The position numbers were made by a program, and so were the translations under genes. From assembly GCA_036001325.1 (NCBI GenBank), contig DASYUK010000480.1, forward strand, positions 1,033 through 65,032: a stretch of DNA of 64,000 nt. The letters are read 5' to 3'. Source of the stretch: Thermoanaerobaculia bacterium (lineage in GTDB: Bacteria > Acidobacteriota > Thermoanaerobaculia > Gp7-AA8). The notes under the pieces were generated by a model, which did not search any database, had not been told where the DNA came from, and was given only the letters and a program-made list of their open reading frames with translations. Below are positions 1 through 53,627 of this stretch, in pieces (position 1 is the stretch's first letter; each line of letters opens with the position of its first letter).

Positions 1-217
1 CCACGGCTCGACCATCGGTCAGCTCGAAGAGGAACCGCTGTTCTATCTCCGCTCTCGCGGCATCGGCGAAGAGGATGCGCGCAACCTGCTCGTGTACGCG
101 TTCGCCAGCGAGATCGTCGACAGGATGAAGGTCGAGCCGATTCGCGAACACGTGCGCCGGGCGATGTTCGCGCAGATGCCGGGACGTTTGCCGGAGAGAA
201 GGGAGGGGACGCGATGA
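1..217 (+). CDS. sufD: Fe-S cluster assembly protein SufD, C-terminal fragment (5' end outside window)
   Basis: In-frame translation ...TIGQLEEEPLFYLRSRGIGEEDARNLLVYAFASEIV... matches the conserved SufD C-terminus; stop TGA overlaps sufS ATG (ATGA). Confidence 0.6.
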   Translation, partial: HGSTIGQLEEEPLFYLRSRGIGEEDARNLLVYAFASEIVDRMKVEPIREHVRRAMFAQMPGRLPERREGTR

Positions 218-1470
218 GCCAGGTCGCAGGTCGCAGGTCGCAGGTCGCGGAAGCGTACGACGTCGACGCCATCCGTCGCGATTTCCCGATTCTCTCGCGC
301 ACCGTTCGCGGCAAGCCGCTCGTCTATCTCGATAACGCTGCTACGACCCAGAAACCGCAGCTCGTGATCGATCGGCTCGTCCGTTACTACTCGGACGAGA
401 ACTCGAATGTGCACCGCGGCGTTCACTATCTGAGCGAGATCGCCACGGCCGCCTACGAAGAAGCACGCACGACCGTCAAGCGCTTCATCAACGCGCGATC
501 GGAGAAGGAAATCGTCTTCACGCGCGGAACGACCGAGAGCATCAATCTGGTCATGCAGAGCTGGGGTCGCAAGAACATCAAAGCCGGCGATGAAGTGCTG
601 ATCTCGGCGATCGAGCATCACTCGAACATCGTCCCCTGGCAACTGCTGTGCGAAGAGAAAGGAGCGAAACTCCGCGTCACTCCCGTGAATGATGCCGGCG
701 AGCTCCTCATCGACGAGTTCGCGCGCATGCTCAACGAGCGCGTGAAGATCGTCGCCGTCGGTCATGCCTCGAACGCCCTCGGCACCATCAATCCGGTCAA
801 GAAGATGATCTCGCTCGCGCATGCGAATGGATCGCTGATCGCCATCGACGGCGCGCAAGGCGTGCCGCACATGAATGTCGACGTGCAGGATCTCGACTGC
901 GACTTCTACGCGTTCTCCGGCCACAAGGTCTACGGGCCGACCGGTGTGGGCGTGCTGTACGGACGGGAGAACCTCCTCGAGGAGATGCCGCCGTGGCAGG
1001 GCGGCGGCGACATGATCCTCTCCGTGTCGTTCGAGAAGACGACGTACAACGCGCTGCCTTACAAGTTCGAAGCGGGAACGCCAAACATCGCCGGCGTCAT
1101 CGGTCTCGCGGCTGCTCTGGACTATGTCGGATCGATCGGGCTGGAAAACATCGCGTCGTACGAGCACGACATCCTTCTCTATGCGACGCGCCGGCTGCAG
1201 GAGATCGATGGGCTCCGCATCATCGGCACGGCGGCGAACAAGGCGGCCGTGATCTCATTCGTGCTCGAGGGTGTGCATCCGCACGACATCGGAACGGTGC
1301 TCGATCAACAGGGCATCGCCATTCGCACCGGCCATCACTGCGCGCAACCGCTGATGATGCGCTTCAACGTGCCCGCAACGGGGCGCGCCTCGTTCGGGCT
1401 CTACAACACACGCGAAGAAGCCGATAGCCTGGTCACCGGTCTGCGGAAAGTCATCGAGGTGTTCCGCTGA
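214..1470 (+). CDS. sufS: cysteine desulfurase SufS (class V aminotransferase, PLP)
   Basis: 418 aa; VYLDNAATTQKP N-terminal motif, PLP-lysine region, C-terminal catalytic Cys loop (HHCAQPL); followed by sufU. Confidence 0.95.
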   Translation: MSQVAGRRSQVAEAYDVDAIRRDFPILSRTVRGKPLVYLDNAATTQKPQLVIDRLVRYYSDENSNVHRGVHYLSEIATAAYEEARTTVKRFINARSEKEIVFTRGTTESINLVMQSWGRKNIKAGDEVLISAIEHHSNIVPWQLLCEEKGAKLRVTPVNDAGELLIDEFARMLNERVKIVAVGHASNALGTINPVKKMISLAHANGSLIAIDGAQGVPHMNVDVQDLDCDFYAFSGHKVYGPTGVGVLYGRENLLEEMPPWQGGGDMILSVSFEKTTYNALPYKFEAGTPNIAGVIGLAAALDYVGSIGLENIASYEHDILLYATRRLQEIDGLRIIGTAANKAAVISFVLEGVHPHDIGTVLDQQGIAIRTGHHCAQPLMMRFNVPATGRASFGLYNTREEADSLVTGLRKVIEVFR

Positions 1471-1919
1471 TGTCGGATCTGCGCGAGCTCTATCAGCAGG
1501 TCATCCTCGACCACAACAAGACGCCCCGAAACTTCCGTGAGATCGCGAATCCGACCAGCCGCGTCGAGGGTTACAACCCCCTCTGCGGCGATCACTACAC
1601 CGTTTATCTCCAACTCGACGGCGACACGATCAAGGACGTGAGTTTCACCGGTAGTGGTTGCGCCATCTCCAAAGCCTCCGCGTCAGTGATGAGCTCGACG
1701 GTCAAAGGAAAGTCGAAGGAAGAGGCCGATCGCCTTTTCGGCACCTTTCACAAACTCGTCACTGGTGATACAAGCGGCCTCGACGCGGCAGATCTGGGCC
1801 GGCTGGCCGCGTTCTCAGGGGTGTCGGAGTTTCCGGCGCGCGTGAAGTGCGCGACGCTGGCATGGCACACGCTGCGAACAGCCCTCGATGGTGAGAAAGA
1901 TACGGTGACAACCGAATGA
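1470..1919 (+). CDS. sufU: SufU/IscU-like zinc-dependent sulfur transfer scaffold
   Basis: 149 aa; NPLCGD...GSGCAISKAS motifs of the SufE2/NifU-like family; start overlaps sufS stop. Confidence 0.9.
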   Translation: MSDLRELYQQVILDHNKTPRNFREIANPTSRVEGYNPLCGDHYTVYLQLDGDTIKDVSFTGSGCAISKASASVMSSTVKGKSKEEADRLFGTFHKLVTGDTSGLDAADLGRLAAFSGVSEFPARVKCATLAWHTLRTALDGEKDTVTTE

Positions 1920-2473
1920 ACATGCGAGAAGAAGTCGTCGTCAACCGTAACGCGGAAGCGGTCATGATTCCGAGCGGCGAGAGAGTTCTCGTTCCGCAAG
2001 GCGCTCGCGCGACGATCACGCAGAATCTCGGCGGCACCTACACGATCATCACCGATCGCGGCCTGATGGTGCGCATCTCCGGCCGGGAAGTCGAAGCGAT
2101 CGGCAAGACTCCTGCCGTGGCGCCGCAGGTCGTCGAGGATGAGGATCTGACGATCGAGAAGCTCGAGAAGCTCGTTTGGGAACAGCTCAAGACCTGCTAC
2201 GACCCCGAGATCCCCGTGAACATCGTCGACCTCGGCCTTGTGTATCTCTGCGAGGTCATCGACGCCGAAGGCGGCGGCAAGGACGTCAAGATCAAGATGA
2301 CGCTCACCGCGCCCGGTTGTGGGATGGGCCCCGTGCTCGCCGGCGACGTGAAGCACAAAGTGGAGGCGATCCCCGGCGTGAAGCACGCCGATGTCGAGGT
2401 CGTCTTCGATCCGGTCTGGGACCGCACCATGATGTCCGACGCCGCGAAGCTGCAGCTAGGCATGATGTGGTGA
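1916..2473 (+). CDS. sufT: SUF-associated DUF59 (MIP18/SufT-like) Fe-S assembly protein with N-terminal extension
   Basis: C-terminal half (...CYDPEIPVNIVDLGLVY...MTLTAPGCGMG...) is a canonical DUF59/PaaD-like domain; operon position after sufU. Confidence 0.75.
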   Translation: MNMREEVVVNRNAEAVMIPSGERVLVPQGARATITQNLGGTYTIITDRGLMVRISGREVEAIGKTPAVAPQVVEDEDLTIEKLEKLVWEQLKTCYDPEIPVNIVDLGLVYLCEVIDAEGGGKDVKIKMTLTAPGCGMGPVLAGDVKHKVEAIPGVKHADVEVVFDPVWDRTMMSDAAKLQLGMMW

Positions 2474-2531
2474 TTTCAGTGCGATAGAATTCCTTCCGTT
2501 CTCCCCAAATCGAACAATCGAGGAGTGTGGA

Positions 2532-3116
2532 ATGCCGTTCTGCGCTTACTGCGGTACGCCCGTCGACGCCATCTCGTACGCTCCGTGTCCCTCCTGCGGG
2601 AATCCGCGCAACGGTGCACCGCGTCCGGCGGTGAAGAAGGGCGGAAATGCCGCGATCATCATCGCGGCGGTCGTGATCGGCGGCCTCGTAGTCTTGGCGA
2701 TCGGCGGCATTCTGGCGGCGATTGCGATTCCTAACCTGCTCACTGCCATGCAAAGGACCAGGCAGAAGCGCACGATGGCCGACATGAGCGCGATCGGCAC
2801 TGCGGTCGAAGCGTATGGAAGCGATCAGCACAAGTATCCGACAGCCAGCGAGCTCGATTCGCTCATGCCGAAGTACGTCAGGAACCTTCCGCGCACTGAC
2901 GGGTGGGAGCATCCGTACCTCTACCAGTGCTGGAGCACGCACGGCGGCACCGACTGCGACGCGTACGCGATCGGCAGCGCCGGCAAAGACGGCGTTTTCG
3001 AGCGAAATGACTTGAAGGAGTATCTGGATGGCAGCAGAGCGACGACGAACTTCAACAGCGACATCGTGTTTGCCAATGGCTCGTTCGTTCAGTATCCGGA
3101 AGGAGTGCAACACTGA
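2532..3116 (+). CDS. zinc-ribbon / TM / GspG-type pseudopilin-like domain fusion protein
   Basis: N-terminal CxxC...CxxC ribbon, one TM helix containing the pilin-like ILAAIAIPNL motif, then a domain paralleling T2SS GspG (ADMSAIGTAVEAY, DGWEHPY, SAGKDG) but without a prepilin G/FTLIE cleavage site. Confidence 0.6.
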   Translation: MPFCAYCGTPVDAISYAPCPSCGNPRNGAPRPAVKKGGNAAIIIAAVVIGGLVVLAIGGILAAIAIPNLLTAMQRTRQKRTMADMSAIGTAVEAYGSDQHKYPTASELDSLMPKYVRNLPRTDGWEHPYLYQCWSTHGGTDCDAYAIGSAGKDGVFERNDLKEYLDGSRATTNFNSDIVFANGSFVQYPEGVQH

Positions 3117-3448
3117 TGTTCTGCACGAACTGCGGCCAGCAACTCCCGCCCAACGCGACCGCGTGTCCGAATTGCGCGACGCGTGTTCGCCGCCTTCCGG
3201 CACCGCCACCCGTTCCGAACTACCTCGTGCCGGCGGTGTTCGTCACGTTGTGCTGTTGTCTTCCTTTCGGAATCGTTTCCGTCGTTTACGCAGCGCAGGT
3301 GAACACCAAAGCAGCAGCAGGCGACATCGCCGGAGCGCAGGCGGCGTCGAAGAACGCGAAGATGTGGGCGTGGATCGCGTTCGGAACCGGCATATTACTT
3401 TCGATCCTCGGAGTGCTCGCCAATGTCGCGAACCTCGGCAACCGTTAG
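3116..3448 (+). CDS. zinc-ribbon + CD225/dispanin family small membrane protein
   Basis: CTNCG...CPNC ribbon then CCCLPFGIVSVVYAAQV...AGDIAGAQAASKNAKMWAWIAFG typical of CD225/IFITM-like proteins; ATGA overlap with upstream gene. Confidence 0.7.
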   Translation: MFCTNCGQQLPPNATACPNCATRVRRLPAPPPVPNYLVPAVFVTLCCCLPFGIVSVVYAAQVNTKAAAGDIAGAQAASKNAKMWAWIAFGTGILLSILGVLANVANLGNR

Positions 3449-3815
3449 AGTGTTCGGCGCGGCCGCGGTGACACTCGCTGGCGCGAGCCTGTACGTCGTG
3501 TACGCATTCGATCCGGCAGTCGGGACGTTTTTCCCGCACTGCGCGTTTCACGATCTGACGGGATTGCAGTGCCCCGGATGCGGGACGACTCGAGCTCTTC
3601 ACGCATTCCTGCACGGCCACATCGCCGCCGCGTTTCACTACAACCGTCTGCTCGTCAGTGTCGCTCCGCTGCTCGTCGCTGCGGTGGCCGGTGAAGCTCG
3701 CTCGCGTCTGCTCAGCGAGCCGGCTCCGCGCGTGCTCCGGAACCCATGGACCGGCTGGAGCATTTTCGTCACGCTCGTCCTCTGGTGGATCGTGCGCAAC
3801 GTGATGAACTGGTGA
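3423..3815 (+). CDS. DUF2752 family membrane protein
   Basis: HCAFHDLTGLQCPGCGTTRAL motif characteristic of DUF2752, which is commonly paired with CD225 proteins. Confidence 0.7.
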   Translation: MSRTSATVRVFGAAAVTLAGASLYVVYAFDPAVGTFFPHCAFHDLTGLQCPGCGTTRALHAFLHGHIAAAFHYNRLLVSVAPLLVAAVAGEARSRLLSEPAPRVLRNPWTGWSIFVTLVLWWIVRNVMNW

Positions 3816-3817
3816 GC

Positions 3818-4114
3818 TCAGCGGTGGTTGCGAAACCACGTCCACTGGTCGATCGATTTTCCTTCCTGGAGCTGCTGCGCCTGCAGGTAGCCATCGATTG
3901 CCGTGAAAGCTGCGACGACACCGGACAGCGTTCCGCAACTCGGAGGAAACAGGAAGACCGCGCACACAACGATCGCGATGATTCCTTTCCTCTTTTGTCC
4001 GAGCAGCAGGTAGCCCGCGCCCCCGAGGAACAGATTCAGGATGCAGACGAGTACGGGATCGACTCCGCCTCCCGGCCTGGGCACGGGAGGCGGTGCCTCG
4101 GAGCGATCTACCAC
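3818..4114 (-). CDS. small two-TM membrane protein (TM2-domain-like)
   Basis: 98 aa, GC3-rich codons, LNLFLGGAGYLLLGQKRKG motif; start abuts stop of the downstream DUF4870 gene. Confidence 0.5.
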   Translation of the reverse strand: MVDRSEAPPPVPRPGGGVDPVLVCILNLFLGGAGYLLLGQKRKGIIAIVVCAVFLFPPSCGTLSGVVAAFTAIDGYLQAQQLQEGKSIDQWTWFRNHR

Positions 4115-4533
4115 TTATCAGCCATGTCGCTGATGACGGGCACTCGGAAGCGCTGGCCGCCGACGCCCTTGACGATGCACATGATGCGGATGACGAGAAA
4201 CGCGATCCAGACGACGCACTGAACGGTCGCGATGCCGCAGCCGAGGCCGACGCCTTGGGGCATGAAGAATCCGACACAGGCCAGCACGACCCAGATCACG
4301 ACTTCGGCCACGAGGATGGCCAGGCCGTTCTTCGCATGCCACTGAACTTCGCGATCGTCTTTCTTCGTAAGAAGTGGGATGAGAGCGAGGATCCAGAGGT
4401 ACGACAGCACGACCATCAGCGTGCGGTCGGAACTCGCACCGGGCGCTCCGCCCGGTGGCGGTGGAGGCGGCGGTGTGTACGATCCGCCGGGTGGTGGCGG
4501 AGGGGGCACAGTGGGCGGAGGCATTGCGCTCAT
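4108..4533 (-). CDS. DUF4870 family membrane protein with Pro-rich N-terminus
   Basis: PPPPPPGGSYTPPPPPPPGG low-complexity N-terminus followed by the conserved DUF4870 core (LSYLWILALIPLL...WHAKNGLAIL); start chosen at MSAMPPP. Confidence 0.65.
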   Translation of the reverse strand: MSAMPPPTVPPPPPPGGSYTPPPPPPPGGAPGASSDRTLMVVLSYLWILALIPLLTKKDDREVQWHAKNGLAILVAEVVIWVVLACVGFFMPQGVGLGCGIATVQCVVWIAFLVIRIMCIVKGVGGQRFRVPVISDMADKW

Positions 4534-4576: not shown

Positions 4577-6232
4577 CTAGCGACTTTGCTCGAGCCGCGC
4601 GAGACGCCGTTCCGCCGCGGCAAGAGGGACCACGGCGAGAAGGATCGACGCGGTCACGGCAACCGCGATCGGCACGGCTGTGGCGATCCAGGGCCGCTCG
4701 TAACCGACGCGAAAGATCTTCCAGAAGAAGTACAGCATGATCGGCCGCGCCGCGAGCAGCATCATCGCGCCGACGTAAGTCAGCGAAACGGCCATGTAGG
4801 CGAAACCGCCGAGCGAGAGTCCTACCTGCAGCGGATTCTCTGCGTCGAAATTCGGTGAGAGAGCACCCATGCCCACACCGAGGCTCACGAGCGTGAAGGC
4901 GATCATCGCCGCCGCCGGCATCGTGAACGCCCAGACGATCAGCCCGGCCGCCAGGATCGTATTCGCAAACGCCGTTAGAAGAAGGGCGACCAGCGTCAAC
5001 GGGACCCCGTAGACGATCAACTTTACAGCCAGCAACTGCCGGTACGAGACCGGCGACACCTGCAACATCCAGAACGCTTTCCCTTCGGATGAGATGGACG
5101 GATAGGCGAAGCGCAAGCAGATTGCGGCGACCACGAAGCCGGCCATGCCGAGGTTCGCGTAGGCGACGAGCGTCGCGCGCGCATCGCCGCCGAGGGGGAG
5201 CATGCGCACGTTGTAGAGATAGATGAAGAGCAGCGCACCCATCATGAAGAGCTGCGACCACTGCGCGACGTCGCGCGTGAGCGTGCGAATTTCTTTCGCG
5301 ATCAGTGCGCGCACCGGCGGTTGCGCACGCGAGAGCAGCCTGTCGATCGAGCGCGTCAGAGGTTTTGCGCCGATCGCCATCGGGGCCATGCTCTCGCGCG
5401 CGCGAACGAAGGCGGCGAAATACGTGCGTCTCGCCGCAAACGCAAACAACGCGAACCCGATCAGAGCGAGACCAGCGATCCTCGGCGGCAGCGGCGAGGG
5501 ATGCAGAGATACCATCGTGTCGGCGAGCGCGGTGCCCGGATAAAGATCGATCGATGGCAGCTCGATCGCGCGCAGAGCAGCGACGAGATTGTCGGTGCGC
5601 ACTTCCGTGAAGAGCCGCTCCGGCCGGCTGACCCGGAACGCCACAACCGTGACGGTCAGAACGAGGATCGCGATCGTGGCGACGATCTGATGAACACGGC
5701 GCACCGGAAACCAACGGACGAGCAGAACGATGGTCAGACTGGCCAAAGTCACAGGAATCGTCAGCAACAGCGCGAGATTGCCGAGGACGATCGGGTAATA
5801 CGTCCACGGACGTTCGTACTGAAGCGCGAACGCAACGAAGAGCGGAACGAGAAAGGCGAAGACGATCGCCGCGCTTTGCAAGAGCGTCTTCGCCCATCGC
5901 GCGACGACGATGGTTAATTTGCGGCGAGGCGCGGCGTGATAGATATCGAGATCGAGATCAGTGAAGAACGCGCCGATCGCTGCGCTCATTGCCGATGAGA
6001 AGAGCACGATCGTGGCGACGAGAAAGACCATCGCCAGAATGTTGCGCAGGATCGCCAACGCGAAGAAGGGCGACGCCGCTTCAATCTGACCTGTCGCGCG
6101 GAAGAGTCGGCGAAACAGGGCGAAATCGCCATAGAGAAACAGGGCGAACGTGATCGCGACGACGCTGATGCGTGCGACGGCCGCGGCGTTGAGCGGGCGG
6201 AGTTTCGAGAGGGCGATGCGAAGAGACCACAT
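4577..6232 (-). CDS. polytopic membrane protein (putative ABC-exporter/ABC-2 permease-like, no ATPase domain)
   Basis: About 550 aa of almost continuous predicted TM helices. The ORF-track N-terminus (MGRRYRGLSAKRPTAPTTYDLRP) is translation of the intergenic palindrome, so start is placed at MWSL (6232). Confidence 0.5.
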   Translation of the reverse strand: MWSLRIALSKLRPLNAAAVARISVVAITFALFLYGDFALFRRLFRATGQIEAASPFFALAILRNILAMVFLVATIVLFSSAMSAAIGAFFTDLDLDIYHAAPRRKLTIVVARWAKTLLQSAAIVFAFLVPLFVAFALQYERPWTYYPIVLGNLALLLTIPVTLASLTIVLLVRWFPVRRVHQIVATIAILVLTVTVVAFRVSRPERLFTEVRTDNLVAALRAIELPSIDLYPGTALADTMVSLHPSPLPPRIAGLALIGFALFAFAARRTYFAAFVRARESMAPMAIGAKPLTRSIDRLLSRAQPPVRALIAKEIRTLTRDVAQWSQLFMMGALLFIYLYNVRMLPLGGDARATLVAYANLGMAGFVVAAICLRFAYPSISSEGKAFWMLQVSPVSYRQLLAVKLIVYGVPLTLVALLLTAFANTILAAGLIVWAFTMPAAAMIAFTLVSLGVGMGALSPNFDAENPLQVGLSLGGFAYMAVSLTYVGAMMLLAARPIMLYFFWKIFRVGYERPWIATAVPIAVAVTASILLAVVPLAAAERRLARLEQSR

Positions 6233-6238
6233 GATGAT

Positions 6239-6321
6239 GGGTCGTAGGTCGTAGGTCGTAGGTGCCGTGGGCCTTTTGGCGCTGAGGCCCCGATACCTAC
6301 GACCCACGACCTACGACCTAC
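6239..6321. repeat. long imperfect palindrome built from (GTCGTAG)3 ... (CTACGAC)3 arms with an inner GGGCC/GGCCC hairpin
   Basis: Direct reading: gggtcgtaggtcgtaggtcgtaggt...acctacgacccacgacctacgacctac; overlaps the ddl stop codon; sits between two minus-strand genes. Confidence 0.8.
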
Positions 6322-7400
6322 GTAATCCTACGCGCGTTGCGCAGCCACTCGAGCGCGCCGTCGCGCCGGGCGGTACGCGATCGGTGACGCTCCAAACCGA
6401 GCTCGATGAGCATCTCGATCAATTTCGAATATTTGATCTCGGTCGCCTCCCACAGTTTGGGATACATGGAGATGGTCGTGAAGCCCGGGATCGTATTGAT
6501 CTCGTTCACGAGCAGGCGACTGGTTCCCTTCTCCAGAAAAAAGTCGACGCGCGCGTAACCGCTTGCGCCGATCGCGCGAAACGCTCCCACCGCGAGCCGT
6601 CGAATCTCTTCGGTCTTTTCCTTCGGCAGCTTCGCCGGGATGACCAGCGTCGACTTCGCGTCGGCAGCGTATTTGTCCTCATAGTCGTAAAACTCGCGTC
6701 CGGCGATGATCTCGCCAGGCACGGACGCCTGCGGTTGATCGTTGCCGAGGACTGAGACTTCGAGCTCGCGAGCGTCGACGCCGCGCTCGATCAGGATCTT
6801 GTCGTCGAATCGCAGCGCGAATTCCACTGCAGCGGCGAGATCGCCGTCGCTCTTCACCTTCGTTACGCCGATCGATGATCCGCTGTTCGCCGGCTTCACG
6901 AAATAGGGAAGCCGCAACATGTTGATGACGGCGCGCGTGACCCGCTCGCGCTCATCGCTCCACTCAGTCTCGTGCACGAGAACGTATTCGACGGTCGGCA
7001 GCTTCGCCGTCGCGAAGGCGTGCTTCATGTGTCCCTTGTCCATCCCCACCGCCGACGCCGCGACGCCCGAGCCGACATACGGCGCGCCGATCGTCTCGAG
7101 GTAACCCTGCAGAGTGCCGTCCTCCCCACCGGTGCCGTGAATCAGAGGGAAGACGACATCCGCATTGCCGGCGCGCCACCATGAGTCGAACGAGAAATCG
7201 ACATCTCCTGCATCGCTGCTCGCGCCGCCGAGGATCTCCGCACTGCGCTGCGGCGCAATGAAGCGACCATCTTTCGCCACGCAGATCGGGATGATCTCGA
7301 TGCGCGACTTCGGCGCGGCGTTCGCGACAGAACGTGCCGAGAGAATCGAGACGTCGTGCTCGGCGCTCCGGCCGCCGAAGATCAGGGCTGTGCGGATCAT
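6318..7400 (-). CDS. ddl: D-alanine--D-alanine ligase
   Basis: 360 aa; ATP-grasp fold with N-terminal IFGGRSAEHDVS and C-terminal conserved Ddl motifs. Confidence 0.95.
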   Translation of the reverse strand: MIRTALIFGGRSAEHDVSILSARSVANAAPKSRIEIIPICVAKDGRFIAPQRSAEILGGASSDAGDVDFSFDSWWRAGNADVVFPLIHGTGGEDGTLQGYLETIGAPYVGSGVAASAVGMDKGHMKHAFATAKLPTVEYVLVHETEWSDERERVTRAVINMLRLPYFVKPANSGSSIGVTKVKSDGDLAAAVEFALRFDDKILIERGVDARELEVSVLGNDQPQASVPGEIIAGREFYDYEDKYAADAKSTLVIPAKLPKEKTEEIRRLAVGAFRAIGASGYARVDFFLEKGTSRLLVNEINTIPGFTTISMYPKLWEATEIKYSKLIEMLIELGLERHRSRTARRDGALEWLRNARRIT

Positions 7401-7412
7401 GTCTTCAAGGGT

Positions 7413-7497
7413 GTCAGGTCTTCAGTTTTCAGTTTTTTTCTACGACCATTGGATTTTTCCAAGACCGGTAGAAAAAAACTGAAAACTGAAGACCTGA
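7413..7497. terminator. perfect 31-bp inverted repeat (bidirectional terminator-like) with U/A tracts
   Basis: gtcaggtcttcagttttcagtttttttctac ... gtagaaaaaaactgaaaactgaagacctgac; lies between MCE gene stop and ddl start on the minus strand. Confidence 0.75.
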
Positions 7498-7503
7498 CCC
7501 CAT

Positions 7504-9036
7504 TTACTTCCCGATCGGGATGCTTCCGAGCAGATACTTCAAATCGTCGTCGCGCCAGCGGATGCCGCCGCCAATCGTGAAAGCGACGTCATTGAGCGGG
7601 TTGTCGACGCCCGCCGTCACAAAAAGGCGCGGCGTTTTCGGTTTCTCGCGCCGCAGCGTGTACTCGCCATAAGCGCGGAAGTGGGGACTGTTGTCGTAGC
7701 GCTGGCCGAAATCGAACGCTTCGCCGGTGAGCCGTACACGCGGATTGAACTGATAATCCGCGCCGACGCCGCCGGTGTTGTCGATCAGACCGACGCGCAG
7801 GCCGAGGTTATCGAGCAACCATCCCGCCTGCGCGGTGATGCGGAAGTCGCGATCGAATCGCGTCTCGTGCGTGATTGTCGTCGTCGTGATTCCTGTTGCC
7901 GGATTCGTCACGGTGAGAATCGTGTCTTTCTCGCGCTTGCGGCCGCGTGGATCGTCCGCGAGCTCGATGTTGTAGAAGCGGTTCCGATCGACATTCGGAA
8001 TCAATCGAAGCGTGGCCGCCGATCGCGAGCTGCCGCCGAAATTCTTGATTCCGTTCTGTTCCTTGTTGAGACCAGCCATGTAGTCGGCCTTCAGACCGAG
8101 GTCCATGCCGATCTTGCTCACGCGGCCGAGCGTGGTTCTCAGCTCGGTGACGCCCGTATCGACAGAAGCGAGAGCGGACGTGAGCCGCTCGTGCGCTTCG
8201 GGACTGTAGATCAGCTTCCCGACAGTTCCCTGGCCGCTCTTCACCTGGCCGGTGATGTCGTTCAGGTTGGTCGTGGTGATCTTCAAATCGGCGGAGAGCG
8301 TCCGCAGGTTTTCGACGACGCGGCGCAGGTCCTCGCGATTCTCACCGACTGTGCCGCCGATCTGATTGGCCACACGATCGAGCGACGCGGCCAGCTTGGG
8401 GATCTCCATGCGCAGGTCCGCCGTGATCGCGCGCATGTTGCCGACGGTAGCGTCGACGTTCGCGCGGTTCGCGGCGATCAACTCGCGCGTCTCGGCGGTG
8501 ATCAGCCGGACGTTCTCGACGATGTCCTCGAGCCTCTCTTGGCCGCCCGGTCCCGCCATCACGTGCCGCAGAGATTCGGTGATCGCTTTCACGTCGGCGG
8601 CGATGAGTGAGATCTGATTCGTCACGTCATCGATCGATGCCGGCGAGGTTCCTCGCAGCGTCACGGTCACCTGCGGCGGCATCGCCGGCGCGTTCTGCGT
8701 TCCCGGATCGAGCTCGACGTATTTCTCGCCCAGGAGACCGAGGTTCGCGACGTGCGCCGAAGCGTTGCTGCGCATCGGGACGTCGTCATCGATCTCCAGC
8801 GTCACTTCCGCTTTCCCGTTCGGGAGCAGCCGGATCTTCGACACTTTTCCCTTGCGCACGCCGGCCACGCGCACGGCTGATTTCTCATCGAGACCGGCGA
8901 CATTGTCGAAGATCACCTTGACCTGGCGCGTCCCTTTGCCGCGACTGATGTCGATGTCCTCGATCTTCAGGATGAAGTAGCCGAGGATGCCGAGGATGAT
9001 CAGCATGAAGACGCCGACTTTGGCTGCTGGTGACAT
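7504..9036 (-). CDS. MCE/MlaD-family protein with long C-terminal extension
   Basis: N-terminal TM plus MCE domain (VKVIFDNVAGLDEKSAVRVAGVRKGKV); about 350 aa extension ending in beta-strand-rich region with terminal aromatic-rich segment. Confidence 0.8.
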   Translation of the reverse strand: MSPAAKVGVFMLIILGILGYFILKIEDIDISRGKGTRQVKVIFDNVAGLDEKSAVRVAGVRKGKVSKIRLLPNGKAEVTLEIDDDVPMRSNASAHVANLGLLGEKYVELDPGTQNAPAMPPQVTVTLRGTSPASIDDVTNQISLIAADVKAITESLRHVMAGPGGQERLEDIVENVRLITAETRELIAANRANVDATVGNMRAITADLRMEIPKLAASLDRVANQIGGTVGENREDLRRVVENLRTLSADLKITTTNLNDITGQVKSGQGTVGKLIYSPEAHERLTSALASVDTGVTELRTTLGRVSKIGMDLGLKADYMAGLNKEQNGIKNFGGSSRSAATLRLIPNVDRNRFYNIELADDPRGRKREKDTILTVTNPATGITTTTITHETRFDRDFRITAQAGWLLDNLGLRVGLIDNTGGVGADYQFNPRVRLTGEAFDFGQRYDNSPHFRAYGEYTLRREKPKTPRLFVTAGVDNPLNDVAFTIGGGIRWRDDDLKYLLGSIPIGK

Positions 9037-47176: not shown

Positions 47177-48838
47177 TCAGCCCGTTGAGGCGTGCAGCGT
47201 GTCGCGAGCGTATTGCCCCTGCGACTCGCCGGCGCCGAGCACGACATGAACGGGCATCTTCTGCTGCAGACCCTTGAGCGCGAACTCGCCGAGGGACTGA
47301 GTTTGGAAGCTGCCGACGATGCGCTCCAGTGTGTTCTGGGAGATCACCAGTTGTCCGGGCTTGGCCACACCGCTCTCGAGGCGCGAAGCGATGTTCACCG
47401 CGCTGCCGAGGACCGTGTAGTCGACGCGCTTCTCGGTGCCGACGTTGCCGACGACCGCCGGACCGCTGTTGACGCCGACGCGGATCAGCACCTTCGGCAA
47501 GCCCTGCTTCTCGCGCTCGGCGTTCCACTCGCCGACAAGCTGCTGCATCATCAGACCGGCAAGCACTGCGCGATCCGCGTGGTCATCCTGCGGAATCGGC
47601 GCACCAAAAAAGGCCATCACCGCGTCGCCGATGAATTTGTCGAGCGTTCCGCCGTAAGCGAAGATCGATTCCACGGCGCATGAGAAGAAGTGCGAAAGGA
47701 ACTCGGCGACTTCTTCCGGTTTCTTTGTTTCGGAGACTGTCGTGAACCCCGAGATGTCGGCGAACAGAATGGACACTTCCCGGCTGCGAATCTCCGTCTC
47801 ACTCGTGGCGACGACCCCCTTCACGATCTCGTCGACGACCGCGGGGGAGTGATAGCGCTCCATCTTCGAACGGATCTTCTGTTCGTGTTCGATCTTCTCG
47901 TTGAGTTGCGCACGCTCGATCGCTACCGCTCCGAAGTTTGCGAGGGCGGTCAGCAGATCGAGATCCTCTTCGGTGAAACGACCGACGTGAATGCGCGAGT
48001 CGACCTGCACGGCGCCGATGACGCGATTGCGGTTCCAGAGCGGCACGCACATCGCCGAGCGGATACCGTGAATGGCGATCGATTTACCACCGAGGAGCCG
48101 AGCGTCCTCGAGCGCGTTGGAGGTCATCAGCGCGACCTGCTGCTCGGCGACCATCTTCAGAATCGTGCGCGAGATCGGGATGTCCTGCGCATCCGCGTCG
48201 TCCATGAACTTCGTCAGCTTCGGCACCGGATTGCCGGCCTCATCGAAGAGGATGATCAGTCCGCGCTCGACCGGCAGGTACTTGAAGATCATGTCCATCA
48301 CGGTCTGGAGAAGCGAGTTGAGGTCCTCGCTCTGCAGCATCGCTTTGGCGACCTGCACGAGCACCTGAAAGATCTTCTCGCGCGTGACGCCGGGCGCCGG
48401 TTTCAGACCGGGCTCGGATGGGACGCGCACTTGCGGCTGCGCCGCCTCGGCCATGTCGAGACCGAACTCGGAATTGAAATCGGAGATCCGCCGGATGACG
48501 GTGCCCGATGCGTTCTCGAACATGGAATCGCCGGAGAAGTCGACGGAGGGGAGCAATTTCACGTCGAGCTGTACTGAACCGACGTGAATCACATCACCCG
48601 AGTTGACCTGCGCCTCGGTGATCAGATTGCCGTTGACCTTCACTCCGTTGGTCGATTTGAGGTCGATGATCCACCAGCGGTTATTGCGTGGCTCGAAGCG
48701 AGCGTGCTTTCTCGAAACGGAAGGGTGATTGAGAATCAGGTCGTTCCCCTCGGTTCTGCCGATCGAAAGGGGAGCCTTCAAATCAGTCACCCGCGGTACG
48801 CCGAGGTCGACGTAATGGACCTGGAGTTGTTCGGTCAT
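47177..48838 (-). CDS. FHA + GAF + class III adenylate/guanylate cyclase
   Basis: FHA (SIGRTEGNDLILNHPSVSRKHARF), GAF, and cyclase (VSILFADISGFT...FIGDAVMAFFGAP) motifs; start at MTEQLQ. Confidence 0.85.
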   Translation of the reverse strand: MTEQLQVHYVDLGVPRVTDLKAPLSIGRTEGNDLILNHPSVSRKHARFEPRNNRWWIIDLKSTNGVKVNGNLITEAQVNSGDVIHVGSVQLDVKLLPSVDFSGDSMFENASGTVIRRISDFNSEFGLDMAEAAQPQVRVPSEPGLKPAPGVTREKIFQVLVQVAKAMLQSEDLNSLLQTVMDMIFKYLPVERGLIILFDEAGNPVPKLTKFMDDADAQDIPISRTILKMVAEQQVALMTSNALEDARLLGGKSIAIHGIRSAMCVPLWNRNRVIGAVQVDSRIHVGRFTEEDLDLLTALANFGAVAIERAQLNEKIEHEQKIRSKMERYHSPAVVDEIVKGVVATSETEIRSREVSILFADISGFTTVSETKKPEEVAEFLSHFFSCAVESIFAYGGTLDKFIGDAVMAFFGAPIPQDDHADRAVLAGLMMQQLVGEWNAEREKQGLPKVLIRVGVNSGPAVVGNVGTEKRVDYTVLGSAVNIASRLESGVAKPGQLVISQNTLERIVGSFQTQSLGEFALKGLQQKMPVHVVLGAGESQGQYARDTLHASTG

Positions 48839-48956
48839 TCGAGACGAAGAATTATATCCGGTAGTAGATGTTAAGCCGCTCGTGGGCGGGGATCGCAATG
48901 CACCGAATAACGTATAATCGCCGTTCGTCCAGCAGATTAGGGATCGTTCCGGAAAA

Positions 48957-50021
48957 ATGAGCGAGCAAGCGACGGCCACAGGTGTCGTTCCCTCAGGGCC
49001 ATTCGTGGTCCGGGCGGTTCTGCGCACGGATGTCGGACGCGTTCGCTCCGAGAACCAGGACTTCGGGACGCTCACGACACCGGCCGAAGACAAGGGCGCG
49101 CATCCGGGCGGGCGGTTGATGATCGTCGCCGATGGCATGGGCGGGCATCGCGGTGGAGCCACGGCGTCGCGCCTCGCCGGCGAGACGATCAAGTCGTATT
49201 ACCTCGGCGGTGGAACCGACGATATCGCCGGCGCGCTTCGCGAGGCGTTGACACGCGCAAACTCGCTGATCTTCGCCGAGGCGCAGACGCATGCGGAATT
49301 GCACGGGATGGGAACGACGACTTCAGCGCTGGTCGTGCGTGGGAATGAAGCCTGGTTTGCGCACGTCGGCGACTCGCGCATCTATCTGATCCGCGGCGAT
49401 GAGATCAATCAGTTGACGGATGATCACTCGCTCGTCGCAACGATGGTCCGCGAAGGGTTGCTTACGGTGAAAGAGGCGGAGAATCATCCGCGACGAAACG
49501 TGCTCCAGAGATCGATAGGCGTCGGTGCGGAGGTGGAAATCGACGTGCGCGGGCCTCTCGAGGTGCAGCAGGGCGACACGTTCGTTCTCTGCAGCGACGG
49601 TTTGCACGGCCTCGTCAAACCGGAAGAGATCAAGGAGATCGTTGCGAACCGGCAGATCGAAGCGGCCGCCGACGATCTGGTCGATCACGCTCTCGAACGC
49701 GGCGCGCCCGACAACGTGACCGTGATCGTTGCGCGAATCGAGCGCGAGGATTTCGACGATGAGCCGACGGTCGTCGACCGCGAGCCTGATCGGGTAGCGT
49801 TCGACGATACGGTGCGGGAGGAGCGTCTCAGTGGAGCGCCGGTGTCCTCACCGGCGGTGCGTGACGCCGGTGAGGACACCGGCGCCCCACCGAGCACCGC
49901 CCCTCCCCGTCGCATCCGTGGATCAACGATCATCAAATGGATGTTGCTCTTCGTGGTCGTGCTCGGTGCGGCCGGCGCGTGGTTGTTCTTTGCCCAGCAG
50001 CAGATGTTTCATATCCGTTAG
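48957..50021 (+). CDS. PP2C-family Ser/Thr phosphatase with C-terminal TM segment
   Basis: RSENQDF, MIVADGMGGHRGG, CSDGL, ERGAPDNVTVIV motifs. Confidence 0.9.
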   Translation: MSEQATATGVVPSGPFVVRAVLRTDVGRVRSENQDFGTLTTPAEDKGAHPGGRLMIVADGMGGHRGGATASRLAGETIKSYYLGGGTDDIAGALREALTRANSLIFAEAQTHAELHGMGTTTSALVVRGNEAWFAHVGDSRIYLIRGDEINQLTDDHSLVATMVREGLLTVKEAENHPRRNVLQRSIGVGAEVEIDVRGPLEVQQGDTFVLCSDGLHGLVKPEEIKEIVANRQIEAAADDLVDHALERGAPDNVTVIVARIEREDFDDEPTVVDREPDRVAFDDTVREERLSGAPVSSPAVRDAGEDTGAPPSTAPPRRIRGSTIIKWMLLFVVVLGAAGAWLFFAQQQMFHIR

Positions 50022-50025
50022 TCAC

Positions 50026-51666
50026 ATGTCCCCGTCTCGCCATCTCCGCCTTTTAGCCATCGTTGCAGTGCTTGTGCTCTCGTGCCGAAACGACGCGGTG
50101 CGGCTCGACGAAGTGCAGAAGATGGCCTACAGCGTGAAGCCGGCCGTTGTGCGCGTGAACGCGCTCGGCACCGCCGAGTTCCGGTACACGAGAAAGTCGA
50201 TCGAATCGGTCGAGCGGCAGCTCCGCAGCGATCGACGAAACGTCACCGCACGGAATCTGCCGGATGGCGAGGCGGCAGTCGATACCGGTGCCGGAGGCTC
50301 AGGCAGCGGCTTCATCATCAATCCGGACGGCTACATCCTGACCAACGGCCACGTCGTCGCTCCGACGAGCGACAATGCCGCGCTCGATCGCGATCTGCGC
50401 CGCAATGGAGCCATCGCCGCGCTCGTCCGCCATTTCCCGGTCGAAGAGCTGCGCGCTCTCTATCGCGATGACGCGCTGGATCATTACATCGACATGCTCG
50501 CCGCCGCGGGTCATCTGTCCGATGTGCGCATCGTCAACGAAGTCGAGCTGTCGAACGGCGAGAAGCTGCCGTTCCGCATCGGACGTTACTCCCCTTCGCT
50601 CAGCGAGCGCGGCGCCGATCTCGCGCTGCTGCAGGTCAACCGGCGCAACTTGCCGGTACTTCGTCTCGGCGATTCAGAGACGGTGGGCGTAGGCGCATCG
50701 ATCTGGTCCGTTGGCTATCCGGCGGTCGCGAGCAGCACCGACGATGTGATCGGCGGATGGCTGTCGCGTGACAGCGATCTCGAAGCGACGTTCAACCCCG
50801 GCACGATCACAGCGATCAAGCGCAACGTCGCCAATGCGACGGTGTTTCAATCGAACGTCGCGATTTATCGCGGCAACTCCGGCGGTCCGGCGGTGAACCG
50901 CGAGGGCGAAGTCATCGGCATCTCCACCTGGGGACACACGAGCGCGGAGCAGATCAAGTTCCTCGTGCCGATCAACGCTGCGAAGTCGTTCGTCGCATCG
51001 GCGCGCGTGAAAGCAAACGTCGAAGGAGAATTCGATCGCTACTACCACGCGGCGCTCGACGCCGCCGCAGCGGGAGAGTGGAAATCGGCGAAGGCCAGTC
51101 TGGCCGATGCCTCGCGCCTCTTCCCGAATTCTCCCGACGTGATTCGCTTCAGCCGCGACGCCGACCGCGCGTTGACGCACGACTCGTCGTGGCCGGCGAA
51201 GTCGATCACCGTCGTCGCGGGTGGGGTCGGTTTCGTCGCCCTGATCGGAACGATCGCATTGGCGGCCGGCAGCAGGCGAACGCGCGTTCCCAAAGACGTC
51301 CTGACGGCGACGACGGTCGTCGAGACGCTCGTCGAGCCGTCCGATTCCACCTCGCGGAAACGAAATGTCATCGGGAAATTCACGATCCTGAATGGCGAGC
51401 GAGCGGGCGAGAAACTGGGCCTGGGCGGCTCGGGAATCCGCATCGGACGGGAGTCGGCGATCTGTGAGATCGTATTGGAGAATCCGAAGGTATCGCGTCT
51501 CCACGCCGAGGTTGTCTCGATCGACGGCAAGGTGATGTTGATCGACAGGAATTCCTCGAACGGAACCTACGTCAACGATGAAAAGATCGATCGGCGATAT
51601 CTCCAGGACGGCGACATCATCCATTTCGGCGGCCGCAACGCCATTGCGGTCGCCTTCCATGCGTGA
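50026..51666 (+). CDS. trypsin-like (S1C) serine protease with TM segment and C-terminal FHA domain
   Basis: GSGFIINPDGYILTNGHVV (His), GNSGGPAV (Ser) protease motifs; C-terminal IGRESAICEIVLENPKVSRLHAEV...SSNGTYVN FHA. Confidence 0.8.
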   Translation: MSPSRHLRLLAIVAVLVLSCRNDAVRLDEVQKMAYSVKPAVVRVNALGTAEFRYTRKSIESVERQLRSDRRNVTARNLPDGEAAVDTGAGGSGSGFIINPDGYILTNGHVVAPTSDNAALDRDLRRNGAIAALVRHFPVEELRALYRDDALDHYIDMLAAAGHLSDVRIVNEVELSNGEKLPFRIGRYSPSLSERGADLALLQVNRRNLPVLRLGDSETVGVGASIWSVGYPAVASSTDDVIGGWLSRDSDLEATFNPGTITAIKRNVANATVFQSNVAIYRGNSGGPAVNREGEVIGISTWGHTSAEQIKFLVPINAAKSFVASARVKANVEGEFDRYYHAALDAAAAGEWKSAKASLADASRLFPNSPDVIRFSRDADRALTHDSSWPAKSITVVAGGVGFVALIGTIALAAGSRRTRVPKDVLTATTVVETLVEPSDSTSRKRNVIGKFTILNGERAGEKLGLGGSGIRIGRESAICEIVLENPKVSRLHAEVVSIDGKVMLIDRNSSNGTYVNDEKIDRRYLQDGDIIHFGGRNAIAVAFHA

Positions 51667-53518: not shown

Positions 53519-53614
53519 CGCCTTCTCCCCGCGGGAGAAGGTGGCGCGAAGCGCCGGATGACGGGCGTGCCCCTCACCCGGCCGTGCGGCCACCCTCTCC
53601 CGGAGGGAGAGGGA
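53519..53614. repeat. three-hairpin dispersed repeat element, copy C (inverted orientation, middle hairpin degenerate)
   Basis: ccttctccccgcgggagaagg...ggatgacgggcgtgcccctcaccc...caccctctcccggagggagaggg. Confidence 0.8.
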
Positions 53615-53627
53615 ACTTGGAGTAACC

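What the first reader, a model, noticed from the sequence alone, without database searches (positions are those of the whole stretch)
2532..4533. Cluster of small membrane proteins with zinc-ribbon N-termini, including a non-cleavable GspG-like pseudopilin fusion
Five adjacent small genes:
- ZnR-TM-GspG-like domain
- ZnR-CD225/dispanin
- DUF2752
- a TM2-like protein
- DUF4870

The first encodes the pilin hydrophobic helix (GILAAIAIPNL) and a globular domain paralleling T2SS GspG (DGWEHPY, SAGKDG). It has no prepilin-peptidase site or Glu5 and is preceded by a cytoplasmic CxxC-CxxC ribbon, so it is a permanently membrane-anchored pseudopilin-like module.

CD225 and DUF2752 are a recurrent pair of unknown function. 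Their linkage here to a pseudopilin-like protein hints at a membrane-remodelling or envelope-stress module.
Basis: partly seen in the sequence, partly recalled or inferred. Interest (0 to 1): 0.5.

Follow-up and report, generated by a model that had tools for sequence, protein, structure and literature searches.

The report
Zinc-ribbon-anchored pseudopilin with CD225/DUF2752 partners
A soil acidobacterium carries a pilus-subunit-like protein that has lost the signals needed to build a pilus and instead looks permanently anchored in the inner membrane. It is always encoded with two small membrane proteins of unknown function, so it is a real, undescribed variant whose role is still only inferred.

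Summary
Gene 2532-3116 encodes an invariant CxxC…CxxC zinc ribbon, a long hydrophobic helix and a GspG-type head. Pfam T2SSG scores above its cut-off, the AlphaFold model has pLDDT 92, and the best PDB fold matches are EpsG, GspG and PulG.

It is not a GspG orthologue. It has no N-methylation or cleavage motif. Glycine sits at the Glu5 position, and 0 of 118 relatives have Glu there. The helix carries an 8-residue insertion, and TIGR01710 scores below its cut-off.

The five genes are not one unit. The conserved unit is three translationally coupled genes: ZnR-pseudopilin, ZnR-CD225 and DUF2752. It is intact in about 44 Thermoanaerobaculia species and in three different flanking contexts. It is absent next to 113 canonical prepilin paralogues.

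The TM2-like gene (below the Pfam cut-off) and the DUF4870 gene end a convergent transcription unit.

The same pseudopilin head also occurs fused to other anchors, such as a ParA-like ATPase, multi-TM modules and TonB_C.

Function remains inferred. The most likely reading is a static periplasmic head in an inner-membrane complex with CD225 and DUF2752.

This is a new variant of a known kind, of moderate interest.

The parts
2520..2525 (+). Shine-Dalgarno-like GAGGAG, 6 nt upstream of the gene 1 ATG
   Evidence: Read directly from the sequence. The gap after sufT is 58 nt, and no terminator-like site was found in it.
2532..3116 (+). Gene 1: ZnR-TM-pseudopilin head protein, 194 aa. PGAP annotates identical proteins as 'GspG'.
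   Evidence: Pfam T2SSG 34.3 bits (cut-off 21); TIGR01710 51.7 bits, below its 88.85 cut-off. 100% identical to P0001 from a Thermoanaerobaculia MAG. AlphaFold pLDDT 92. Best fold matches are EpsG, GspG and PulG.
2532..2615 (+). Gene 1 aa 1-28: CxxC-x11-CxxC zinc ribbon, inferred to be cytoplasmic
   Evidence: C4, C7, C19 and C22 are invariant in 118 homologues, and all 120 best hits carry the motif. pLDDT is about 90 over residues 1-30. Pfam zinc-ribbon models match only below threshold.
2646..2741 (+). Gene 1 aa 39-70: lengthened pilin alpha1-N helix used as a signal-anchor. G51 occupies the Glu5 position, and there is an 8-residue insertion relative to canonical prepilins.
   Evidence: Alignment A6 with canonical paralogues. 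Column counts show 0 of 118 with Glu, and 27 uncharged residues before P67 versus 21 in canonical pilins. The model has one continuous helix over residues 40-99.
2742..3113 (+). Gene 1 aa 71-194: pseudopilin globular head, inferred to be periplasmic. Conserved features: DGW, the C133/C142 pair, S-x-G-K-D, NFDxDI and a C-terminal YPEG.
   Evidence: The Cys pair is present in about 70% of the ZnR-anchored representative clusters (31-32 of 45) and in 1 of 10 canonical representatives.
3116..3448 (+). Gene 2: ZnR-CD225/dispanin protein, 110 aa. Its start overlaps the gene 1 stop (TGATG).
   Evidence: CD225 90.1 bits and Zn_Ribbon_1 30.6 bits. The junction was read. A CD225 gene lies immediately downstream of gene 1 orthologues in all 44 species loci.
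3423..3815 (+). Gene 3: DUF2752 membrane protein, 130 aa from the ATG at 3423 or 121 aa from the GTG at 3450. It carries an invariant C40, C50-P-G-C53, R57, H60, H64, N74 motif.
   Evidence: DUF2752 71.4 bits. Motif conservation in 102 sequences. AlphaFold pLDDT 89. No solved-structure match. The junction was read.
3818..4114 (-). Neighbour, not part of the conserved unit: small 2-TM protein with a weak TM2 resemblance. It is the last gene of the convergent minus-strand unit.
   Evidence: TM2 17.1 bits, below the 27.9 cut-off, and only 2 of 6 orthologues hit. Its stop codon lies 2 nt from the gene 3 stop. It is absent from the trio's neighbourhood in context-B loci.
4108..4533 (-). Neighbour, not part of the conserved unit: DUF4870 (MamF_MmsF) membrane protein with a Pro/Gly-rich N-terminus
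   Evidence: DUF4870 30.6 bits (cut-off 25). It travels with ABC_tran_2, ddl and the MlaD-like gene, not with the trio.

Best explanation
Genes 1-3 (2532-3815, + strand) are a three-gene operon for an inner-membrane module found in Thermoanaerobaculia.

Gene 1 descends from a lineage-specific GspG-like pilin. Its class III signal peptide has been replaced by a cytoplasmic zinc ribbon, and its alpha1-N helix has become a longer, uncharged signal-anchor.

The protein therefore inserts N-in/C-out. It cannot be processed, methylated or extracted into a filament. It displays a pseudopilin head on the periplasmic face of the inner membrane, and that head is probably disulfide-stabilised.

It is made together with a ZnR-CD225 (IFITM-like) protein and a DUF2752 protein, through start/stop overlaps. 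It most likely works with them as a hetero-oligomeric membrane complex.

In that complex:
- The CD225-DUF2752 pair is the widespread core.
- The pseudopilin head is a lineage-specific periplasmic adaptor or interaction domain.
- The two zinc ribbons are cytoplasmic topology or oligomerisation handles.

Shown: the architecture, the fold, the loss of the pilin assembly signals, and the operon conservation.
Inferred: the topology, the lack of cleavage, the physical complex, and any role in membrane or envelope homeostasis.
For: Fold:
- AlphaFold pLDDT 92 with one 60-residue helix followed by an alpha/beta head.
- The Foldseek PDB top hits are EpsG, GspG and PulG, probability 1.0.
- A family profile hits PilA and GspG chains.

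Loss of assembly signals:
- No N_methyl match.
- G51 sits at the Glu5 position and there is an 8-residue insertion.
- 0 of 118 relatives have Glu there, and there are no acidic residues in the membrane segment.

Origin from pilins:
- Canonical KGFTLIELL prepilins share 50-56% identity over residues 49-193.

Zinc ribbon:
- The four Cys are invariant.

Operon:
- TGATG overlap between genes 1 and 2, and an overlapping or 2-nt junction between genes 2 and 3.
- 43 of 44 species-representative loci have CD225 and DUF2752 directly downstream. The 44th contig ends inside CD225.
- 49 of 52 group-1 loci overall have both, against 0 of 113 canonical prepilin paralogues and 0 of 33 other architectures scored as such; 2 further loci the script put in 'other' do carry both genes and are probably N-terminally truncated or mis-parsed ZnR forms (L018, L035).
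- The trio is intact in three flank contexts: suf|trio|TM2-like…; ABC exporter|trio|other; rluB-hslVU|trio|TM2-like….

Core pair elsewhere:
- CD225-DUF2752 in Nonomuraea, and CD225 / ZnR-TM2 / DUF2752 in an unrelated metagenome contig.

No filament machinery nearby:
- No T2SS/T4P machinery or prepilin peptidase within ±8-10 kb in related loci, or among the 30 largest other ORFs of the window.

Non-filament use of the head:
- The same head occurs behind a ParA/MinD ATPase, behind multi-TM modules, before TonB_C, and in tandem copies.
Against: - Nothing experimental exists. Cleavage, topology, zinc binding and complex formation are all inferred.
- G37 before the helix is 84% conserved and aligns with the pilin G(-1), so residual processing is not excluded.
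- Linkage is confined to one orthologous group in one class. A more distant ZnR-pseudopilin subfamily (L100, L104) has no CD225 or DUF2752 next to it.
- CD225 also occurs alone (L180).
- In most species the trio follows the suf operon with no predicted terminator, so part of the conservation could reflect that operon's stability.
- DUF2752 has no structural or functional precedent.
Confidence: 0.55

Rival explanations
1. Tethered partner of a real pseudopilus or pilus. The anchored protein docks through its pilin helix and head onto filaments built from the canonical paralogues in the same genomes. It would act as a membrane anchor, nucleator or terminator that cannot leave the membrane.
For: - The head and the alpha1-C helix are 50-56% identical to co-resident canonical prepilins.
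- The GILAAIAIPNLL segment that packs in filament cores is nearly invariant.
- Canonical paralogues occur in the same MAGs (for example L076 with L008, L061 with L010).
Against: - A subunit added last at the filament base would need Glu5 to pair with the N-terminus of the subunit above it. That residue is absent in all 118 relatives.
- The 8-residue insertion shifts the helix register.
- No filament machinery or canonical pilin gene lies near the trio.
- Canonical paralogues are never linked to CD225 or DUF2752.
Confidence: 0.15
2. An ordinary, cleavable prepilin with an unusually long leader that contains a zinc ribbon. It would be processed after G37 and assembled as a minor pseudopilin.
For: - G37 is conserved in 99 of 118 sequences and aligns with the canonical G(-1).
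- PGAP and JGI call these proteins GspG/PulG.
Against: - No N_methyl motif match.
- The residues after G37 are S/T-N-A-A. This is typical of a helix N-cap, and the model's helix starts at residue 40.
- There is no Glu5.
- Basic residues do not directly precede the Gly.
- The four Cys of a leader that would be discarded would not be expected to stay invariant down to 34% identity.
- TIGR01710 scores below its cut-off.
Confidence: 0.08
3. No functional module. The adjacency of the small membrane-protein genes is inherited synteny in a slowly rearranging region next to the suf and ddl genes.
For: - The whole region suf … ddl-MlaD-maf is syntenic in most species.
- Genes 4 and 5 do indeed belong to a different transcription unit.
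Against: - The trio stays contiguous when both flanks change (10 species plus L088/L089) and when only the upstream flank changes (L176).
- The gene junctions overlap.
- Insertions accumulate between gene 3 and gene 4 but not inside the trio (L013, L014, L028, L033, L042).
Confidence: 0.1

Closest known systems
Type II secretion major pseudopilin GspG (PulG/EpsG/XcpT; PF08334, TIGR01710)
   Same: - A long N-terminal helix with the GILAAIAIPN core.
- An alpha/beta head with the S-x-G-x-DG loop.
- These are the best fold matches in the PDB.
   Different: - No class III signal peptide or N-methylation motif, and no Glu5.
- An 8-residue longer hydrophobic segment, and an N-terminal zinc ribbon.
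- An extra C-terminal beta-hairpin (TTNFDxDIV…YPEG).
- Scores below the TIGR01710 cut-off.
- Not encoded with T2SS genes.
- Encoded with CD225 and DUF2752 instead.
Canonical orphan prepilins of Thermoanaerobaculia (e.g. P0185, L061:7974-8468)
   Same: The nearest sequence relatives of the head: 50-56% identity, with the same C-terminal NFDxDI…YPEG motif.
   Different: - They keep KG|FTLIELL with Glu5 and match N_methyl.
- Most lack the C133/C142 pair.
- They occur singly or in tandem.
- None of the 113 examined lies next to CD225 or DUF2752.
IFITM/dispanin (CD225) proteins
   Same: Gene 2 has the CD225 domain, with the conserved Cys cluster (TLCCCLPFG) and the GDxxGAQ loop. Bacterial dispanins, including acidobacterial ones, and their conserved Cys motif are noted in PMC3282796.
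   Different: - Gene 2 is a bacterial protein with an N-terminal zinc ribbon, and its function is unknown.
- Here it is in an operon with a pseudopilin-head protein and DUF2752, which has not been described in the searchable literature.
Archaeal 'bindosome' sugar-binding proteins (from general knowledge, not tested here)
   Same: Another case where the pilin signal and the pilin head domain are uncoupled.
   Different: It is the mirror image. There, a class III pilin signal peptide is placed on a non-pilin domain. Here, a pilin head is kept and the class III signal is lost.

Membership tests
GspG major pseudopilin (T2SS) | T2SSG globular domain (PF08334) above the gathering score | tested here: met
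   34.3 bits against a cut-off of 21, residues 69-155.
GspG major pseudopilin (T2SS) | Equivalog-level match to TIGR01710 | tested here: not met
   51.7 bits against a cut-off of 88.85.
GspG major pseudopilin (T2SS) | Prepilin-type cleavage/N-methylation motif (PF07963; G|F/M-x-x-x-E) | tested here: not met
   No PF07963 match at E <= 0.1. A canonical paralogue scores 41 bits. The alignment shows the motif replaced and 8 residues inserted.
GspG major pseudopilin (T2SS) | Glu5 of the mature subunit | tested here: not met
   G51 is at that position. Across 118 sequences the column holds G, V, L, A, I or F and never E.
GspG major pseudopilin (T2SS) | Pilin/pseudopilin fold | tested here: met
   Model pLDDT 92. 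Foldseek matches to EpsG 4lw9, 3gn9, GspG 3g20 and PulG 1t92 at probability 1.0, with TM-score normalised to the target of 0.56-0.64.
GspG major pseudopilin (T2SS) | Encoded with T2SS machinery (GspD/E/F/O) | tested here: not met
   None among the Pfam-annotated neighbours within ±8-10 kb in L001, L004 and L006. None among the 30 largest other ORFs of the 64-kb window. The rest of the genome was not examined.
GspG major pseudopilin (T2SS) | Processed by prepilin peptidase and assembled into a pseudopilus | not testable with these tools
   Needs biochemistry.
CD225/dispanin (PF04505) | CD225 domain above the gathering score, with the conserved Cys cluster | tested here: met
   Gene 2 scores 90.1 bits against 27.1. 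The CCC at aa 46-48 was read from the translation.
DUF2752 (PF10825) | DUF2752 domain above the gathering score | tested here: met
   Gene 3 scores 71.4 bits against 27. The C-x9-CPGC-x6-H-x3-H motif is invariant.
TM2 domain (PF05154) | TM2 domain above the gathering score | tested here: not met
   Gene 4 scores 17.1 bits against 27.9, and only 2 of 6 orthologues hit at E <= 0.1.
DUF4870 / MamF_MmsF (PF09685) | Domain above the gathering score | tested here: met
   Gene 5 scores 30.6 bits against 25.
Zinc ribbon (PF13240/PF12773/PF13248) | Four metal-binding Cys in two CxxC knuckles; Pfam match | tested here: inconclusive
   Gene 2 passes: Zn_Ribbon_1 30.6 bits against 25. Gene 1 matches only below threshold (DZR 16 bits, Zn_ribbon_3 15 bits). 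However, its four Cys are invariant in 118 sequences, and the region is modelled at pLDDT about 90. Metal binding was not tested.

The most novel reading that the evidence does not exclude
'Anchored pseudopilins' may be an undescribed class of periplasmic domain proteins that work independently of any type IV filament machinery.

In Acidobacteriota the GspG-type head, carried on its own helix as a stalk and anchor, has become a mobile module. It is attached to zinc ribbons, multi-TM modules and a ParA/MinD-like ATPase, placed before TonB_C, or repeated in tandem.

In one branch it is the dedicated periplasmic partner of the bacterial IFITM-like CD225 protein and DUF2752. The invariant Cys3/His2 motif of DUF2752 is predicted to face the periplasm, where it could be a metal or thiol-redox centre. 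That would give the first functional handle on bacterial dispanins.
Probability: 0.3. Interest if true: 0.65.

Novelty: new variant of a known kind. Interest (0 to 1): 0.5.

Why it matters
- **Annotation.** Pipelines label these proteins 'type II secretion system protein GspG'. That is misleading: the defining assembly features are absent, so secretion-system inventories of Acidobacteriota will be inflated.
- **Pilin biology.** The pilin fold is thought of as a filament subunit. A large set of relatives keeps the head but swaps the class III signal for permanent anchors. Most of the best 150 representative clusters are of this kind, which suggests a second, non-filament use for this fold.
- **Bacterial dispanins.** The function of bacterial CD225/IFITM homologues and of DUF2752 is unknown. 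A tightly conserved three-gene operon gives concrete interaction partners to test.

Tried and rejected
- **Genome scan with the divergent alignment A3.** It failed because no stretch was conserved enough. It was repeated with A1.
- **Foldseek against afdb50.** The library was not available, so the architecture's spread in UniProt could not be checked.
- **Rosetta-stone test.** I asked whether the multi-TM module fused before the head in the ~320-aa relatives is homologous to CD225, DUF2752, DUF4870 or the TM2-like protein. hhalign matched only the shared zinc ribbon (CD225 set, columns 1-44), and the other comparisons gave probabilities of 13% or less. Rejected.
- **NJ tree of head domains.** The aim was to see whether anchored forms are monophyletic. 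The classes interleave and fragments confound the tree. Unresolved, so no claim is made.
- **Linkage in the distant ZnR-pseudopilin subfamily ('PNFLDALQKAKQKRT').** The metagenome scan gave mostly short contigs. The two informative loci (L100, L104) have no CD225 or DUF2752. The linkage is therefore specific to one orthologous group.
- **Anti-phage defence role.** No PADLOC hit for any of the five proteins.
- **Literature.** No paper holds DUF2752; CD225 together with DUF2752; or pseudopilin together with zinc ribbon. No T2SSG paper covers anchored forms.
- **TM2 membership of gene 4.** Rejected at the Pfam threshold.
Full report
**Where the window comes from**

Gene 1 is 100% identical to a protein from Thermoanaerobaculia (Acidobacteriota) MAGs, which PGAP names 'type II secretion system protein GspG'. 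The window has 60-64% G+C throughout.

**The genes**

On the + strand, sufS (214-1470), sufU (1470-1919) and a sufT-like gene (1916-2473) are followed by three genes:
- Gene 1, 2532-3116.
- Gene 2, 3116-3448.
- Gene 3, 3423-3815.

On the - strand lie:
- Gene 4, 3818-4114.
- Gene 5, 4108-4533.
- ABC_tran_2, 4577-6307.
- ddl, 6318-7400.
- An MlaD-like gene, 7504-9036.

Pfam assignments:
- Gene 1: T2SSG, 34.3 bits against a cut-off of 21.
- Gene 2: Zn_Ribbon_1 plus CD225, 90 bits.
- Gene 3: DUF2752, 71 bits.
- Gene 5: DUF4870, 30.6 bits against a cut-off of 25.
- Gene 4: TM2 at only 17 bits against a cut-off of 27.9. Only 2 of 6 orthologues hit it at all.

The one caveat is that 'TM2-like' is a sub-threshold resemblance.

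**Gene 1 has a pseudopilin fold but is not a pilin in the assembly sense**

With a 118-sequence alignment, AlphaFold gives pLDDT 92. The model has a small beta-ribbon (residues 1-30), one continuous helix (residues 40-99) and an alpha/beta head.

The best PDB matches are the major pseudopilins EpsG, GspG and PulG, at probability 1.0 and TM-score 0.56-0.64 normalised to the target. A family profile finds PilA and GspG chains.

The features that define a prepilin are absent:
- No PF07963 N-methylation motif match. A canonical paralogue from the same class of organisms scores 41 bits.
- TIGR01710 reaches 51.7 bits against a cut-off of 88.85.
- In an alignment with canonical relatives (…KG|FTLIELLIVVAIIGILAAIAIPNLL…), the query has an 8-residue insertion after the Gly. 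G51 sits where Glu5 should be.
- Across 118 family members that column holds G, V, L, A, I or F, never E. The membrane segment has no acidic residue, and 27 uncharged residues precede P67, compared with 21 in pilins.
- The conserved G37-S/T-N just before the helix is best read as a helix N-cap, because the modelled helix starts at residue 40. It is also the only residual argument for cleavage.
- The four zinc-ribbon Cys are invariant in all 120 best hits, and down to 34% identity.

**Evolutionary setting**

An exhaustive search of 50%-identity representatives gives 1157 relatives at E <= 1e-10. Among the best 150 I found these architectures:
- ZnR-TM-head, the query's own type.
- Canonical prepilins with 50-56% identical heads.
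- Proteins of about 320 aa with ZnR, a multi-TM module, a TM and the head.
- Multi-TM-head proteins.
- ParA/MinD-like ATPase-TM-head.
- ZnR…head-TonB_C.
- Proteins with two to four tandem heads.

The head, together with its helix, therefore behaves as a mobile periplasmic module in this phylum. A quick NJ tree did not resolve whether anchoring arose once.

**What the conserved unit is**

A scan of one genome per GTDB species returned 44 loci with full-length orthologues, all from Thermoanaerobaculia or Acidobacteriota.
- All 44 have a CD225 gene directly downstream. About 17 of them have two tandem CD225 genes.
- 43 of the 44 also have DUF2752. The remaining contig ends too early to tell.

Pooling all fetched loci:
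- 49 of 52 group-1 ZnR-head genes have both partners. The other 3 are truncated or affected by ORF overlap.
- 0 of 113 canonical prepilin paralogues have them.
- 0 of the 33 other architectures scored as such have them. Two further loci that the script classed as 'other' do carry both genes. They are probably N-terminally truncated or mis-parsed ZnR forms (L018, L035).

The trio survives three different contexts:
- Context A: suf operon | trio | TM2-like-DUF4870-ABC_tran_2-ddl. This is the window's own context.
- Context B: ABC exporter | trio | unrelated genes such as a rhomboid. It has neither suf nor genes 4 and 5, and occurs in 10 species plus L088/L089.
- Context C: rluB-hslVU | trio | TM2-like….

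Insertions of 0.6-1.3 kb occur between gene 3 and gene 4 in several species, but never inside the trio.

In the window the gene 1 stop overlaps the gene 2 start (TGATG). Gene 3 starts either 26 nt inside gene 2 or 2 nt after it. A GAGGAG precedes gene 1. Genes 3 and 4 are convergent, with their stop codons 2 nt apart.

I conclude that the functional unit is the trio. Genes 4 and 5 belong to the convergent ABC_tran_2/ddl/MlaD-like unit.

**Reach of the association**

A more distant ZnR-head subfamily (34-45% identity, motif PNFLDALQKAKQKRT) shows no CD225 or DUF2752 in the two loci with enough flank, L100 and L104. The head's recruitment to CD225-DUF2752 is therefore specific to one orthologous group.

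The pair itself is broader:
- CD225 sits directly upstream of DUF2752 in Nonomuraea gerenzanensis (L092).
- A metagenomic contig (L091) carries CD225, ZnR-TM2 and DUF2752 in a row.
- In Streptomyces cadmiisoli, DUF2752 lies between two TM2 genes.
- CD225 can also stand alone (L180).

Bacterial dispanins, their presence in Acidobacteria and their conserved Cys motif were noted by Sällman Almén et al. (PMC3282796). I found no paper on DUF2752 or on zinc-ribbon pseudopilins.

**DUF2752**

A 102-sequence alignment shows invariant P31, P38, C40, T46-G47, C50-P-G-C53-G, R57, H60, H64-G65 and N74. The AlphaFold model (pLDDT 89) has three long helices, with a 45-residue mini-domain between the first and second.

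K+R counts are high at the N-terminus and in loop 97-107, while region 29-73 is near neutral. This places the Cys/His motif on the periplasmic side by the positive-inside rule. That is an inference.

No solved structure resembles the model.

**Mechanism**

The best-supported reading is a static inner-membrane complex.
- Gene 1 product is held N-in by a folded cytoplasmic zinc ribbon. It spans the membrane on the lengthened alpha1-N helix and presents the pseudopilin head on the periplasmic face.
- That head carries a C133/C142 pair. The pair is present in about 70% of ZnR-anchored representatives (31-32 of 45) and in 1 of 10 canonical representatives.
- Gene 1 is co-produced with the ZnR-CD225 and DUF2752 proteins.

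The architecture, the fold, the loss of pilin signals and the operon conservation are shown. The topology, non-cleavage, the physical complex and any membrane or envelope role are inferred.

Rivals:
- A tether, nucleator or terminator for filaments of the canonical paralogues. This is disfavoured by the missing Glu5, the shifted helix register and the lack of any genomic link to filament genes.
- A cleavable prepilin with a zinc-ribbon leader. This is disfavoured by the missing motif and by the strict conservation of a leader that would be discarded.
- Mere inherited synteny. This is disfavoured by the three contexts and the overlapping junctions.

No T2SS/T4P machinery lies near the trio or elsewhere among the large ORFs of the window. 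There are no PADLOC defence hits.

**Verdict**

This is a new variant of a known kind: a pseudopilin-fold protein converted into a zinc-ribbon-anchored bitopic membrane protein and fixed in an operon with CD225 and DUF2752. It is also one example of a wider, undescribed set of anchored pseudopilin-head proteins.

Interest is moderate (0.5). The architecture and linkage are solid and unreported. The function is unknown, and the lineage is mostly uncultured.

Noticed in passing
Related proteins P0229/L059:1763-3556, P0194, P0238, P0162, P0136, L057:314-1363, L051:7614-8450: The same GspG-type head, with its AAIAIPNLLTAMQRSKQKRT helix, occurs in several other architectures. It follows a ParA/MinD-like P-loop ATPase plus TM, follows ZnR plus a multi-TM module, follows an unassigned multi-TM domain, precedes a TonB_C domain, and appears as 2-4 tandem copies in one protein.
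   Followed up: partly
window 3540-3614 (gene 3 aa 40-64): DUF2752 carries an invariant C-x9-C-P-G-C-x3-R-x2-H-x3-H motif, as well as invariant N74. By the positive-inside rule the motif is predicted to face the periplasm, so it may be a metal or thiol-redox site. No solved structure resembles the model.
   Followed up: partly
L006, L015, L022-L025, L028, L029, L033, L034, L038, L042, L043, L045, L046, L049, L052 (about 300-1300 nt downstream of the gene 1 orthologue): About 17 species have two tandem CD225 genes between the pseudopilin-head gene and DUF2752. Where Pfam annotation was available (L006), the first lacks the zinc ribbon and the second has it. The window has only one CD225 gene.
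   Followed up: no
L061:7953-9100, L076, L066, L075, L080 and others: The canonical prepilin paralogues (KGFTLIELL…) often sit in tandem pairs. They are not in T2SS/T4P operons. In L061 they are flanked by YfhO-like membrane proteins, an M20 peptidase, YceG/MltG and a Ser/Thr kinase-TonB_C protein.
   Followed up: partly
window 214-2473 (+): sufS, sufU (NifU_N) and a sufT-like gene (FeS_assembly_P) lie directly upstream of gene 1. The gap is 58 nt with no terminator-like site. In most species the trio follows the complete Rrf2-sufBCDSUT operon, so it may be co-transcribed with Fe-S cluster assembly genes.
   Followed up: partly
window 4577-9036 (-): A conserved minus-strand unit runs from an MlaD-like gene with helical-needle and lipoprotein domains, through ddl (D-Ala-D-Ala ligase) and a 576-aa PF16949 'ABC_tran_2' polytopic membrane protein, to DUF4870 and the TM2-like gene. 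This is an envelope-related gene string of unclear logic.
   Followed up: no
window 47180-56428: A dense FHA-centred signalling cluster. It holds an FHA-GAF-adenylate/guanylate cyclase, a PP2C phosphatase, a trypsin-like protease with FHA, a Ser/Thr kinase with FHA, a second Ser/Thr kinase and a TPR protein.
   Followed up: no
L001:8174-8669, L004:14944-15400: A ParE-like toxin gene with a small upstream partner sits between maf and a nucleotidyl-transferase gene in the syntenic region of close relatives. The corresponding part of the window (about 9.1-9.9 kb) was not examined.
   Followed up: no
L094:2493-3815 (Streptomyces cadmiisoli plasmid) and L093:2607-3342 (Paenibacillus): Outside Acidobacteriota, DUF2752 is paired with other small two-TM proteins instead of CD225. 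In Streptomyces these are annotated TM2 genes on both sides. In Paenibacillus it is an unassigned 114-aa membrane protein. DUF2752 may therefore partner with several kinds of small hairpin membrane proteins.
   Followed up: partly
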